Positions 48,872-54,450 of a stretch of 64,000 nt of DNA are shown in pieces; the stretch's first letter is position 1; every line of letters begins with the position of its first letter. A program made the position numbers and the translations under genes. The stretch covers positions 151,838,001 through 151,902,000 of the forward strand of contig NC_042998.1 of the NCBI RefSeq assembly GCF_006345805.1, in the 5' to 3' direction. Source of the stretch: Octopus sinensis (taxonomy: Eukaryota). Under the pieces are notes generated by a model that made no database searches, was not told the origin of the DNA, and was given only the letters and a program-made list of their open reading frames with translations.

Positions 48872-51800
48872 TATATTTGTGTGTATATGTGTATGTGCGT
48901 GCTCACGTGTAGGTATGTTTATATGTATGCATATTGTGAGGAAAATTTGAGTCGTGAGAGACAACAGCAAGGCCATCACCTCCCTATACCAATGCATCAA
49001 GATTTTGGAATTTACATGTTGTTAGCCTAAAATGTAAAATCCTACCAGTCTTGTACCATAAGAGTGAGTTTCAAGAATATATTAATTCCACAAAACCTAT
49101 TTGGCACTCTTTTCTTTCTTCCTAACACAAGAACACAGTAAAGAAATAAACACACACATACGCCCGCGCACGTAGATGTATGTATATACATATGCATACA
49201 TACATATATGCGTGTGCATACGCGGGAAAAAAGTGCCAGTGGTGTAAAGTAGTGCTGACTGCTTGAAGGGGTCAGTACCGTGGAAGTGGAAGACTGAGAA
49301 AAGCACATGACAAACTGGTGAAAACCGATTTTAAGAATTTGAACTTCATGAAGAAACTGTCAGAGAATCAAAACGAATGGCGATATGTGGTGCTGAAGAA
49401 GACTTGTTTGCCCGTTAAGCTTCGCAAACGGTCGTAAAAACTGAAGTGGTCAATTTATCATTGCATCACAATGCCTGAGTAAAGAGGAATACCTTAGGAT
49501 CTATTTGTACTTAAATATTCCCTACCCTTATATGCTGCAAACCATTTCCCTCCCCCATATCATTCTTCATTGACAGCTATCATTCTCTCTTACCGTCTCC
49601 CATCTTTATTCTCTCCTTCCTCCTCCTCTCTCTCTCCCTTCCTCTTTATTCTTTATCGTCATTTCTAGCCTTCTCCCTTCAATCTCTTTTCTCACTTCTA
49701 CATCACTTCTTCTTGACATATATCCTTTTCCTTCAATTCCATTATGCCCCCACCCTGCATCACCCTACCTATAACGTCACTCCTTTCTCCGTGTCCCACC
49801 ATATTATGCTACTTATGCTGCCTTTCTACTCCATCCCCTTACCATCATCCAACAAGTAGCATCCAATCACTGTCTCTCTTCTATCCTGCTGTCGTCTTTC
49901 TTGTTTCCATCATTCTGTTTTCCCCATAATACTCAGAATCCATTTTTCGTTCACCTTCCTCGCTGTCATTCTCTGTTCTGTAAAATATCTCGATTACTTT
50001 TGTCTTGAATGAAGGGAGACAACCTAGAGCGAAGAAAAACTCTTGAGTTTTGCAATTTTTCAGTACTAATATCAGAATAAAATGGTTTTTACATTTTCAG
50101 ATTTGTTGTTATGGTCGTCGTCATTGTTGTTATTGTTGCTGCTGCTGTTGTTGTTCTTGGTGGTGGTGGTATTGGTGGTAGTGCTGGGGGGGGGGTAGTA
50201 CTAGTAGCAGTAGCAGCAGGAATGGTAGTGAGAGTGGTGTTGGTATTGGTAGTGGTTGTGCTGGCAATGTTGTTGCTATTGTTAGTGGTGGTAGAGGTGA
50301 TGCCAGTGAGGATGGAGCTATGGTGAAAGAGGAGGTAGGTTGTTTTGGTAATGTAACCGTGATGATAGAGATGGGAGTGGTGGTAGTAAAGAATTATTAT
50401 GATGTTGGTATGGTAATGATGATGATAATGATGATGTGGAGAAAGTCGATTGCGCTTGGCTATGGTGATGAAGAAGGATTGAGGTAGCGACGGGACGTAG
50501 AAACGGTGATAGGGCTTATGCTCATAATGGCGCTGACGATAATAAATGACGAGGATGAAGTCATAATAATAATGATGATGATGAAGTGGAGGCGGTTGGG
50601 GGATGGTGGAGGAGGCGGTGGTAAGGAGGAGTAGGATGTGGATGGTTGAGGTAGAAGATGCTGCAGTTGATGATGATGATGATCATCATCATCATCATGA
50701 TTATGATCATGATGATGATCATCATCATTATGATCATGATGATGACGATAACGATGATGTAGAGGAGATGGTATGGAGCAGTAGGAGGTGGCTAGTTGGC
50801 GTAAGGGTGATATGATGCTGCTGTTGATGATGTTAAGGATGGTGACGACCATAAAGATGAAAGTGATCATGATCATGACCATAATCAAGATGATCATGAT
50901 GATCATGACGATACCGACAACAACGACGATGATGATGATGAAGATAATGACGACGATGATGATAAAATAATGATAACGATGACTATGACGACAACAGCCA
51001 CATCCTAAGAGAACGCCTTGCGGTGATTATCTCCATTTCCATTATCTTCACGTGGCAATCCTGTGGAATCTCAGTATTCAGACTTACTGGAAGCGAGGTT
51101 ATTCCTCCTGGAACAGAGATATTACGGGGGGCGGGGTTGGTGGGGGAGGATTGGCTTGTCTGTGAGAGAGTGTGACGAATGCGGCGTGTGAATGTATGTA
51201 TAAATATAAATATAAATGTATATATAAAACATGTAAACAGATATGTATATGAGTGTGCATGTATATATATATATATATAACACATATATGTATATATCAC
51301 ATATTCTCATCCATACATGCACCATCAAAGTACGTGCTCGGAATCCAACAAGACAGATTTGATTCAGATCAATGCATTGTTTCCGATGTGTGATGGTAGG
51401 GTCGGAGCTCGGAAGAAGAAAATGAGACTTTGTTTGGGATGAAGGAACTGGTAGAGGATGTGGAAGTGGAATAGTTGGATAGAGGGTAAGGTGACATAAG
51501 CAGAAAGAAAGAAAAGGGAGTTAGTTATTTTCAGGAATGAAAAAGAACAGGGAAGAAAGCAACAAATGAACGAAAGAATGAAAATAAAGAGAGAAGGAAA
51601 ACGTGAAAGAGCAAGTTATAAAAGGGATATAAATAAAAATTGTATGGAAGGAGCAGATATGTATATCACGTATTTGTTCGTCTCCCCGTGGCCATTAGGC
51701 ACAACTTCACAAGCCAGCCCCATACTCAACTCGTCCTGTCGAAAGACCCTTGTCCTACGTCCTGGTTTTGTTTTGTTGTTTATTTTTTATTTTTATTTTT

Positions 51801-51968
51801 ACCGTTATTGTTTTTACGTTTTTGTATTCTTATTGGTGTCACGTATTCTGTATTTTTGTTTATGTACTTCGTTCGTTTTCCGTCCTCGCGTTGTATACAT
51901 TCGAAGCTTTCTTCCAGGGGATCTAATGCGCTTGGCTTAGATTTCCCTTGGCGGGCTGGCCATATCGG

Positions 51969-52030
51969 AGCAATCTCAAGATTAATCAGCCGAAATTGCT
52001 AAGATGATCTGGTTCTTGACTGATGACTGA
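51969..52030 (+). ncRNA. Hammerhead-like motif with non-circularly permuted strand order, copy 1
   Basis: agcaat-C-tcaaga, then tcag-cc-GAA-attgct, then tcttga-CTGATGA-ctga; stems III and I are each 6 perfect bp in hammerhead register. Confidence 0.6.
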
Positions 52031-52753
52031 GGGCTTCGAATGTCCCGTCCTGTGGTTCTTGTGTCGTCTCTGTGGTGTTTCATGTTCTTGTCCATGTCTG
52101 TAATTATTTTTACTGTTTACCTATATAATCGGCGGCTACGTATCCACAATTGTCCTTATACGATAAGTATATTTTTTCTCTAGCATTGATACGACTCTTA
52201 ATCTGTCTCTTTTTCTCTCTCTCTCTCTCCTCCCTTATTCCCCTTCCTTTCTTTCCCTCTCCATCCGTCTCCCCCCCCCTTCTACGTTTCTCTATCTCTC
52301 TCACCTCCAGCCCCTTCGATCTGTCTCTTTCTTCTCCTCCCTCGTCCACCTTCTCTCTCTTTTCATCTGTCCCTTTCTCCTGTCTTTTGTTCTCACGTGA
52401 CCGCTAGCCGCTGTTGAGCGCTCTTTTCGTTTTCAGCAGCCGCAGAAGCAACACGTATTTGTTCGTCTCCCCGTGGCCATTAGGCACAACTTCACAAGCC
52501 AGCCCCATACTCAACTCGTCCTGTCGAAAGACCCTTGTCCTACGTCCTGGTTTTGTTTTGTTGTTTATTTTTTATTTTTATTTTTACCGTTATTGTTTTT
52601 ACGTTTTTGTATTCTTATTGGTGTCACGTATTCTGTATTTTTGTTTATGTACTTCGTTCGTTTTCCGTCCTCGCGTTGTATACATTCGAAGCTTTCTTCC
52701 AGGGGATCTAATGCGCTTGGCTTAGATTTCCCTTGGCGGGCTGGCCATATCGG

Positions 52754-52815
52754 AGCAATCTCAAGATTAATCAGCCGAAATTGCTAAGATGATCTGGTTC
52801 TTGACTGATGACTGA
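52754..52815 (+). ncRNA. Hammerhead-like motif with non-circularly permuted strand order, copy 2
   Basis: Identical to 51969-52030, offset 785. Confidence 0.6.
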
Positions 52816-54450
52816 GGGCTTCGAATGTCCCGTCCTGTGGTTCTTGTGTCGTCTCTGTGGTGTTTCATGTTCTTGTCCATGTCTGTAATTATTTTTACTG
52901 TTTACCTATATATATATATATATATATATATATATATATATATATATATATATACACACATATACATATATATATATATATGTGTGTGTGTGTGTGTGTG
53001 TGTGTGTGTGTACACAGACAGATACAATGTGTACATGCATACATACATACACATACATACATACATACATGTATGCATGCATACAGGTGGTGGTAATGGT
53101 GAAAAAGAAGAAAGTGGTCCATCAGAGTAAAGAAAGAAAGAAAGAAAGAAAGAAAGAAAGAAAGACACCGAAGAATGTGGTAGAAGACGAAACAGAAAAA
53201 GAATAAAAAACAATATATAATGAATGAATGAGAAACTGAAAGACTTGAAGGAAAAAAGGAAGGAAGGAAGGAAGGAAGGAAGGAAGGAAGGAAGGAAGGA
53301 AGGAAAGAAGGGAGGAAGGAAGGAAGGTAATCAATAAAGAATGAAGGGGAATGAATATAAATAGATAAGATGCAGACTGGAGATAAGCGGTAAAACAAAG
53401 AGAGAATGAAAGTAATAACGGTGGAAAGAAGAAAGAAAAGTGGGAGATAGATCGACTGAAAGGAACAATGGGGAGAGAGGATTTTGATTTGACTGAGGGG
53501 ACAGGCTCCATGTTGTTCTTTAGTGTCTGTCTCTGGTTGGCGGTGGTTGTATCGATTTTGCTGAAGCTCTATTGATCGATGACTACAGAAAGAAAACTTG
53601 GGCGCACCAAAATAAGTAATCTAAATAATGACTTGATTATTTAGATGACTTTGATAACTAGAAACGGTGGCGAAATCTTCCTCTAAATAATACCCTACGC
53701 TTTTAAACGAAGTAGTAAGGCTTTGATCCTATAATCCTCATTATACTATATCTGAAAATAAGACAGGCTGGTCATATCTGTAGAGACAATCTCGAAAGGC
53801 AAAAGATGGTGCCAAAACGGTTTGTATAGAAAAAGTGCAAGAAACCATTCTGAGATGGTTAAATGGTAAAAACAAAGAAGATTAATTGTATAATATATTT
53901 AATGCAACTCGGAGCGTATCTAGTCTTTAAAGCAAACTACTACAACCAATGTACATGTTTCACTTCTATTAAACCTCTTCAGCCGCACATACCATACTCT
54001 TGCAAAGGAAGTGTGATAATCATATTTATATATTCGAATAAGTCAATAAAAGCAGCTCCATTGTAAAAAAATATCGAAACCGTATGGTCTGGGGGTCTCG
54101 TGGCTAGAAGAATGTAGGGGTTCACTCTCCTGTTTGCAATATATATCGGGTGCAGATTGCATCGAATAACTAACTGGAGGAGTCGATTCACGGGGTTAAA
54201 GATAGCAGTATTGTCGGCTCCTACGGAACAGCCATGTTTAAGTGACAATATATTCTCAGTAGAGATTTTCTAACTGCTGTAAAATATTTATATAAATATA
54301 ACATACTTAACGTATGTTTGGTTGAAAAGTTAGAAACTGCAGATTTTCTTCCAAGAAAATTTCCTTTATGCATATATACATTAAATCTATATATGTATGT
54401 ATGCGTCTGTATACATGTGTGTGTGTGTGTGTGTGTGTGTGTGTGTGTGT

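What the first reader, a model, noticed from the sequence alone, without database searches (positions are those of the whole stretch)
51667..52912. Duplicated 785-bp non-coding unit carrying a hammerhead with scrambled (non-circularly permuted) strand order
Seen: each 461-bp repeat has substrate strand A = agcaat-C51975-tcaaga, then B = tcag-cc-GAA-attgct, then C = tcttga-CTGATGA-ctga. agcaat/attgct (stem III) and tcaaga/tcttga (stem I) are perfect 6-bp helices in exact register around an AUC site. Stem II (ctga/tcag) is offset by two extra C. An outer helix (acattcgaagc 51897-51907 / gcttcgaatgt 52033-52043) closes the domain. Established: hammerhead types I, II and III have orders C-B-A, B-A-C and A-C-B, so A-B-C is not a circular permutation and would be missed by standard models. 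I recall natural non-circular permutations being reported recently, so the class may have precedent. Inference: it is either a pseudoknotted monomer or a split ribozyme completed only in the tandem transcript (A1+C1+B2). Cleavage in both copies would release a 785-nt retrozyme-like RNA, possibly mobilised by Penelope RT.
Basis: partly seen in the sequence, partly recalled or inferred. Interest (0 to 1): 0.88.

Follow-up and report, generated by a model that had tools for sequence, protein, structure and literature searches.

The report
Split-core hammerhead in circular retroelement RNA
This repeat is one copy of a young, high-copy non-coding jumping element whose RNA is predicted to fold into a self-cutting hammerhead ribozyme with scrambled strands and a catalytic core broken open by a four-way junction; genomic copies pile up right at the predicted cut and one carries the same RNA-editing-like marks twice, so the RNA likely cuts itself in cells and is likely copied from a circle.

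Summary
Observation confirmed, structure partly corrected. The 461-bp repeat is 1.59 units of a 785-bp non-coding retroelement (952 exact hits of its 3' motif; fixed 3' end in (TA)n, variable 5' truncation). Hammerhead blocks run S-G-C as in type SGC (Eckert 2023), but stem II is not CTGA/TCAG. Covariation shows the GAAA-side strand pairs with an upstream strand, and two extra helices form a four-way junction between A9 and G10.1, a break Eckert assumed impossible. The design recurs in ten sequence families, at about 14,000 genomic sites (control 279), and at the 3' ends of published Naiad elements said to lack hammerheads. Indirect signs of activity: 5' ends pile up just after the predicted cut (19 of 71 versus 2.0 expected; 12 of 50 in an unrelated family; inconclusive in Naiad copies). 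One insertion carries 13 identical A>G changes in both tandem copies, as expected from rolling-circle copying of an edited circle (n=1). Cleavage was not assayed; the partner reverse transcriptase was not found. I found no description in print. This scan has noted the same design many times, in this genome and others.

The parts
51667..52912 (+). One insertion of the non-coding tandem retroelement (family W): 1.59 units, 5'-truncated, fixed 3' end
52128..52912 (+). One full 785-bp unit, counted from the internal TATATA junction to the 3' end
51897..51911 (+). P5 5' strand (junction arm 1); pairs with 52029-52043
   Evidence: compensatory changes within family F read
51914..51951 (+). P6 hairpin (junction arm 2); flush to G10.1 in B, C, D, F, G, two extra nt in W
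51954..51959 (+). Stem II strand starting at G10.1 (51954); pairs with 51986-51991
   Evidence: 95.7% of cells paired, 4 of 5 pairs change on both sides; also in the MFE fold
51960..51966 (+). Stem I-II bridging helix, 5' strand (pairs with 52006-52012; one U.C mismatch in W)
51968..51969 (+). Predicted kink-turn GA, partner of 52003-52004 after a 3-nt bulge (52000-52002)
   Evidence: 97 of 148 distinct hits; absent in family G
51970..51981 (+). Block S: stem III strand, AUC, predicted cut between C51975 and U51976, stem I strand
   Evidence: 5' ends of copies pile up just 3' of it
51986..51999 (+). Block G: stem II strand ending C11.1 (51991), GAAA (51992-51995), stem III strand
52014..52026 (+). 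Stem I strand and CUGAUGA core (52020-52026); not followed by a stem II strand
52029..52043 (+). P5 3' strand
52682..52828 (+). Second, identical ribozyme domain; predicted cut C52760/U52761
52122..52127 (+). Internal TATATA: likely site where target-primed reverse transcription starts (same as the 3' end 52907-52912)
   Evidence: 76 of 78 sampled insertions end here, 2 within 2 nt
52913..52981 (.). (TA)n target microsatellite
52394..52401 (+). CACGTGAC E-box-like motif, candidate internal promoter element (inferred, untested)
   Evidence: same or near-same motif in W, B, D, E, F copies; not found in G by the regex

Best explanation
The locus is a 5'-truncated tandem insertion of a young non-coding retroelement, and each unit is predicted to fold into a hammerhead ribozyme whose strands run stem II strand, bridging helix, S, G, bridging helix, CUGAUGA, with a four-way junction in place of the A9-G10.1 bond; it likely cuts after C51975, the 785-nt piece likely circularises, and a Penelope-like reverse transcriptase supplied in trans would copy it from an internal TATATA into (TA)n. 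Shown: copy number, end structure, covariation of stems I, II, III and the bridging helix. Inferred: cut linear RNAs give the 135-155-bp copies that stop at the cut; circles (or uncut multimers) give copies longer than one unit. Inferred and weakest: identity of the partner enzyme.
For: Fold: on an unfitted MAFFT alignment of 28 copies from six subfamilies the model has 91.9% of cells paired, 16 of 27 pairs with two-sided change, slid controls 17-48%. Unrelated families G, H, I and N keep every core letter and the upstream stem II with different sequence. N7 varies (U 71, A 50, G 27 of 148) and the cut triplet varies within NUH, as a hammerhead allows (the descriptor itself excludes G at 17). 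A pattern that assumes nothing upstream of GAAA gives 14,005 hits against 279 for the control; of its first 30 loci, 15 have a paired S block, and of these 13 have an upstream stem II of at least 4 of 5 pairs and 1 a canonical one. Cutting: 78 W insertions sampled by a 3' motif in genome order; 19 of 71 at risk end in an 18-nt window at the cut (2.0 expected, P about 6e-14); 17 end in the 18 nt 3' of it, 0 in a like window 5' of it. Prediction written beforehand held in family G: 12 of 50, 1.8 expected, P 1e-7, 0 at -22..-5. Circle: 25 of 78 insertions exceed one unit and 2 exceed two; L274 has 13 A>G changes across the cut, identical in both tandem copies, hitting 12 of 12 A after non-G and 1 of 10 after G (ADAR preference recalled). 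Partner type: (TA)n targeting, partial tandems and 3'-similar non-autonomous copies are PLE traits (PMC8557442 passages); PLE reverse transcription starts internally (PMC11167929 passages); published Naiad 3' ends show the same fold by eye; a PLE-type RT remnant lies 1.8 kb upstream of one N copy (1 of 8 loci).
Against: No cleavage assay and no usable RNA reads. W's own junction is imperfect (two pyrimidine mismatches after A9, two extra nt before G10.1, a U.C mismatch in the bridging helix), and its MFE fold holds a helix that competes with stem III. A post-A9 register (GGCT/AGCC) also beats shuffles (68.5% paired), though it is broken in family B. One unit further upstream 1 of 15 ends falls in the window; this is fewer than the first-pass rate but not significantly (P 0.06), so stalling at structure is not excluded by that test. 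The Naiad-type family gave only 5 of 50 ends at the cut, inconclusive. Some ends sit on short TA-like matches to the target, which may set their fine position. The edited tandem is a single case and could come from gene conversion; the 73 shared against 29 unshared substitutions are largely subfamily variants and do not separate circle from a uniform tandem source. Covariation counts are by sequence, not by independent event. No element with an ORF shares W's sequence. In vitro, hammerhead cleavage was not needed for insertion by an anole PLE.
Confidence: 0.8

Rival explanations
1. The fold and self-cleavage are real, but long copies come from uncut linear tandem transcripts, not circles; cleavage only trims RNA and yields dead short copies.
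For: Tandem genomic sources of 1.6-2.5 units exist; cleavage was dispensable in vitro for an anole PLE; shared variants are mostly subfamily variants.
Against: Identical 13-site A>G pattern in both copies of L274 is hard to get from two separately edited units; copies over two units long exist (2 of 78).
Confidence: 0.3
2. The fold is conserved as a protein-binding or reverse-transcriptase-stalling structure; it no longer cuts, and the 5' pile-up reflects stalling plus TA microhomology.
For: W junction is imperfect; second-pass test not significant; several ends lie on TA-like letters.
Against: The edge of the pile-up falls at the predicted scissile bond in two unrelated sequences; the unit has 37 TA-like sites and in the first tally no other 18-nt window held more than 5 ends; only the positions that hammerhead chemistry leaves free vary.
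Confidence: 0.1
3. One reading: plain type SGC with stem II = CTGA/TCAG and a two-C bulge, or a type III hammerhead completed between two tandem units.
For: CTGA/TCAG is complementary in W.
Against: 38.4% of cells paired, no better than shuffles; canonical partner directly after A9 reaches 5 of 5 in 0 of 124 hits and 0 of 30 loci.
Confidence: 0.04
4. The partner is not a Penelope-like element but a restriction-like-endonuclease LINE (HERO type), as other notes of this scan report for related ribozymes.
For: Earlier notes e1-8807312, e1-9564434, e1-9081200, unchecked.
Against: No such ORF remnant was found upstream of a ribozyme in the loci held; this was not a directed search.
Confidence: 0.2

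Closest known systems
Type-SGC hammerhead (HRIMA-1 and variants), Eckert et al. 2023, PMC10085705 (read: parts 2-5 of 8 and passages; supplements not read)
   Same: Order S-G-C; short linker from stem I to stem II (4 nt here, typically 3 there); a helix joining the far sides of stems I and II; all core letters.
   Different: There block C (CUGAnGA plus stem II strand) is unbroken and assumed unbreakable; here the stem II strand lies upstream of S and a four-way junction replaces the A9-G10.1 bond. There no SGC RNA was found in genomes of known organisms; here about 14,000 sites in one animal genome.
Non-LTR (animal) retrozymes, as described in bioRxiv 10.64898/2026.07.22.740005 (read: parts 1-2 of 5)
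   Same: Non-coding tandem units, one hammerhead per unit, proposed circular intermediate and PLE origin; unit length within the reported 51-972 bp.
   Different: Defined there by a type I hammerhead; this fold would be missed by those descriptors.
Naiad Penelope-like elements and non-autonomous PLE derivatives, Craig et al. 2021, PMC8557442 (read: passages; supplement rows and passages)
   Same: (TA)n targeting, partial tandems, 5' truncation; Naiad_Ovul ('HHR_half_core') and Naiad_Obim, Naiad_Aacu, Naiad_Anas 3' ends show this fold by eye.
   Different: The paper reports no canonical hammerhead in Naiads; W shares the fold, not the sequence, with Naiad ends, and cephalopod Naiads are described as long inactive while W is young.

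Membership tests
Hammerhead ribozyme | CUGANGA, GAAA and NUH core letters | tested here: met
Hammerhead ribozyme | Stems I, II, III in register around the core, with G10.1-C11.1, supported by covariation | tested here: met
   (stems 95.7-97.6% paired; G10.1-C11.1 in 25 of 28)
Hammerhead ribozyme | A9 joined directly (0-2 nt) to the stem II strand | tested here: not met
Hammerhead ribozyme | Site-specific Mg-dependent self-cleavage in vitro | not testable with these tools
   indirect genomic footprint only
Type-SGC hammerhead | Block order S, G, C with short stem I to stem II linker | tested here: met
Type-SGC hammerhead | Helix bridging the far sides of stems I and II | tested here: met
   helix 3 (80.4% paired, 2 of 6 pairs two-sided)
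Type-SGC hammerhead | Block C uninterrupted | tested here: not met
Non-LTR retrozyme | Non-coding tandem units each with a hammerhead | tested here: met
Non-LTR retrozyme | Type I hammerhead | tested here: not met
Non-LTR retrozyme | Circular RNA intermediate | tested here: inconclusive
   one edited tandem; no reads available
Non-autonomous Penelope-like element | Partial tandem, fixed 3' end, variable 5' truncation, microsatellite target | tested here: met
Non-autonomous Penelope-like element | 3' sequence shared with an autonomous PLE | tested here: inconclusive
   no similarity to 30 GIY-YIG loci or 16 extended loci; only 150 of 5029 candidates were scored; same fold, different sequence, in Naiad ends
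Non-autonomous Penelope-like element | Optional 30-40 bp tail beyond the 3' end | tested here: inconclusive
   seen by eye in two B copies, in 0 of 78 W insertions
LTR retrozyme / TRIM | Two true LTRs with fixed outer ends and a type III hammerhead | tested here: not met
   5' ends vary freely; order is not S-C-G

The most novel reading that the evidence does not exclude
A hammerhead topology outside the six published permutations, with its catalytic strand opened by a four-way junction and braced by a kink-turn, is the missing ribozyme of Naiad and related animal retroelements; it cuts in vivo, and these elements integrate by rolling-circle reverse transcription of ligated RNA circles, recorded in the genome as 5' ends at the cut and as twice-copied A-to-I edits.
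Probability: 0.65. Interest if true: 0.9.

Novelty: new variant of a known kind. Interest (0 to 1): 0.83.

Why it matters
It would add a natural hammerhead wiring that the current permutation scheme rules out, move non-circular hammerheads from anonymous metatranscriptomes into animal genomes at over ten thousand sites, and explain why Naiad elements were scored as lacking a hammerhead. The pile-up of insertion ends at the cut and the twice-copied edits speak to an open question stated in PMC8557442, what hammerheads do in endonuclease-bearing Penelope-like elements, and make it testable with a 150-nt RNA. Standard ribozyme models would be missing this class throughout invertebrate genomes.

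Tried and rejected
Rfam: no hammerhead match listed. Post-A9 GGCT register: partial signal, kept only as a possible alternative fold. A splice-acceptor reading of the sequence before G10.1 in families G and H was considered and dropped: it is the 3' strand of P6. Intact 781-aa C-terminal GIY-YIG PLE as carrier: rejected; the descriptor hit 1 of 16 extended loci, and that hit and the one in L172 belong to a separate family-G insertion behind the element's own 3' end. It still targets (TA)n and remains a possible partner in trans. The 2.2-kb spaced G pair holds a LINE insertion, not a PLE ORF. Sequencing runs: no RNA holder listed; eight runs laid were all contigs, with RNA only guessed, so no start, end or expression can be read; one contig beginning at 52761 is not counted. 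Naiad-type 5'-end test inconclusive; upstream ends there are unreliable because of UTR variants. L420 RT remnant had no Pfam hit, only a pairwise match (E 1e-6). The first polarity test had a bug and was redone. Three W lengths were wrong and were corrected: 20 became 19, and the second-pass count 0 of 13 became 1 of 15. In one search the automatic choice of bridging helix was wrong for most rows, that of P5/P6 for E, F2, H and N, and row F2 was mis-parsed; those were read by eye. The energy comparison omits the pseudoknotted stems and is not used. Rows dropped: seven duplicate loci of the same W insertions; one pair of G matches 457 bp apart on C2 was not fetched. Reference 13 of PMC13725137, cited for hammerheads with additional helices, was not identified or read.
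Full report
Observation. Rfam lists no hammerhead among 150 of 165 matches shown. The order S-G-C is the published type SGC (PMC10085705, parts 2-5 of 8 read), which that paper found in no genome of a known organism.

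The element. A 181-bp query gave 1379 first-look candidates; of the 40 scored, 31 were 100% and 9 were 99% identical. A 20-base 3' motif has 952 exact matches, control 0. The first 100 listed matches group into 78 insertions; 76 end at unit position 461 and 2 within 2 nt, followed by (TA)n, while 5' ends vary. So the 461-bp repeat is a partial tandem, not an LTR. No coding frame was found in the unit. 25 of 78 insertions are longer than one unit and 2 longer than two.

The fold. Older subfamilies B, C, D, E and F were collected from flanks and by search. On an unfitted MAFFT alignment of 28 copies (28 of the 176 then held), stems I and III covary, and the strand before GAAA pairs with a strand upstream of block S (window 51954-51958): 95.7% of cells paired, 4 of 5 pairs changed on both sides. 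A register five bases after A9 scores 68.5% and beats shuffles but fails in family B. A fourth helix joins the far sides of stems I and II, as in type SGC. After A9 comes helix P5, whose partner strand leads into hairpin P6, which leads into G10.1; in B, F and G the junction has no unpaired base, in W it has two mismatches and two extra bases. A kink-turn signature between the bridging helix and stem III, a lead from earlier notes, is present in 97 of 148 distinct hits and absent from family G. These counts are by sequence, and related copies inflate them; the stronger argument is that families with unrelated sequence, G, H, I and N, keep the same helices. A pattern covering only GAAA to CUGANGA gives 14,005 matches against 279. 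In its first 30 loci, 15 have a paired S block; 13 of these have an upstream stem II of at least 4 of 5 pairs, 1 has a canonical one; six others are truncated just after the predicted cut, one of them already in the W sample. Eckert et al. assumed that block C cannot be interrupted, so this fold is outside their six types.

Link to Naiads. Craig et al. (PMC8557442, passages and supplement look-ups) report (TA)n targeting, no canonical hammerhead, and eight 'half core' cases including Naiad_Ovul. Read by eye, the 3' ends of Naiad_Ovul and Naiad_Obim, of Naiad_Aacu and Naiad_Anas, and of one more record carry the same fold. A 20-base motif from it has 625 matches here, control 0, and 1 of 8 extended loci has a PLE-type RT remnant 1.8 kb upstream (no Pfam hit). 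W shares the fold but not the sequence. An intact 781-aa PLE with a C-terminal GIY-YIG domain also ends in (TA)n but lacks this ribozyme. W's partner is not identified.

Footprint of cutting. In the 78 W insertions, chosen without regard to 5' extent, 19 of 71 that reach it end in an 18-nt window at the predicted cut, against 2.0 expected (P about 6e-14; 3e-12 after correcting for 44 windows); 17 end in the 18 nt 3' of the cut and 0 in a like window 5' of it. The same was predicted in writing for family G and found: 12 of 50 sampled of 262 matches, 1.8 expected, none at -22 to -5. In the Naiad-type family, 5 of 50 sampled of 289 ended at the cut and 0 just upstream, which is inconclusive. At the second pass in W, 1 of 15 ends falls in the window (P 0.06 against the first-pass rate), so structure-caused stalling is disfavoured but not excluded.

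Footprint of a circle. Insertion L274 has 13 A>G changes over unit positions 306-374, on the ribozyme strand, spanning the cut, identical in its two tandem copies; 12 of 12 A after a non-G and 1 of 10 after G are changed (P 2e-5). That neighbour bias matches ADAR editing (recalled, no call). The simplest reading is one edited circular RNA copied more than once round. It is one case, and gene conversion between the copies is not excluded. Across 20 informative insertions 73 substitutions are shared by both copies and 29 are not, but many of these are subfamily variants.

Mechanism. Transcript (shown only as contigs of guessed RNA runs, so not shown), self-cleavage at AUC (inferred), a linear product and a ligated 785-nt circle (inferred), internal priming at TATATA on a nicked (TA)n target by a Penelope-like enzyme (inferred; internal initiation is shown for an anole PLE, where cleavage was dispensable in vitro, PMC11167929 passages). 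Linear templates give 135-155-bp copies; circles give long ones.

Novelty. Searches of the paper library returned no description of a hammerhead split between A9 and G10.1 by a junction; passages of PMC10162972 and PMC7936874 did not show one, and PMC544870 was seen as a listing only. One reference on hammerheads with additional helices was not identified, subscription papers are not covered, and Eckert's supplements were not read. This scan has noted the same design in other genomes and many times in this genome (137 notes fit 'hammerhead', 8 shown), including the pile-up at the cut; my split-core reading was noted before the first look-up and the pile-up tests. A look-up combining truncation, cleavage, editing and circular returned nothing. 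Verdict: real feature, works like a hammerhead retrozyme, not a member of type SGC or of type I retrozymes as defined; new variant of a known kind.

Noticed in passing
window 37776-42538 (+): Near-intact LINE: 488-aa ORF1, endonuclease (PF03372) and RT (PF00078) frames interrupted by single stops.
   Followed up: partly
window 48250-48795 (+) and 57656-58225 (+): Mariner-type transposase fragment (PF01359) and Pif1 helicase fragment (PF21530).
   Followed up: partly
window 16646-23430: Several arrays of a 26-bp satellite, in both orientations.
   Followed up: no
window 29310-29475: Long hairpin giving a weak, below-threshold microRNA-family match.
   Followed up: no
L191-L194 (G000): Young Penelope-like family with intact 781-aa ORF, C-terminal GIY-YIG and CxxC linker, ending in T-rich sequence plus (TA)n; its 3' UTR has repeated TGACGTC motifs and no ribozyme of this type.
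   Followed up: partly
L429, about 0.9 kb upstream of the match: 196-aa frame that looks like a Hydra-type PLE endonuclease (label recalled, not tested); another candidate partner family.
   Followed up: no
L274 (G000:C1:106215700-106217700): The A>G cluster destroys GAAA, so editing may protect a circle from re-cutting.
   Followed up: partly
L427 and L452: Copies with internal deletions ending a few bases before the predicted cut.
   Followed up: no
W insertions, unit positions 238-255: Smaller cluster of 5' ends at the foot of hairpin P6 (5 in an 18-nt window on the second pass); possible stalling site.
   Followed up: no
runs X1-X18: The unit is held by runs coded as three organisms, so the family is shared among related species.
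   Followed up: partly
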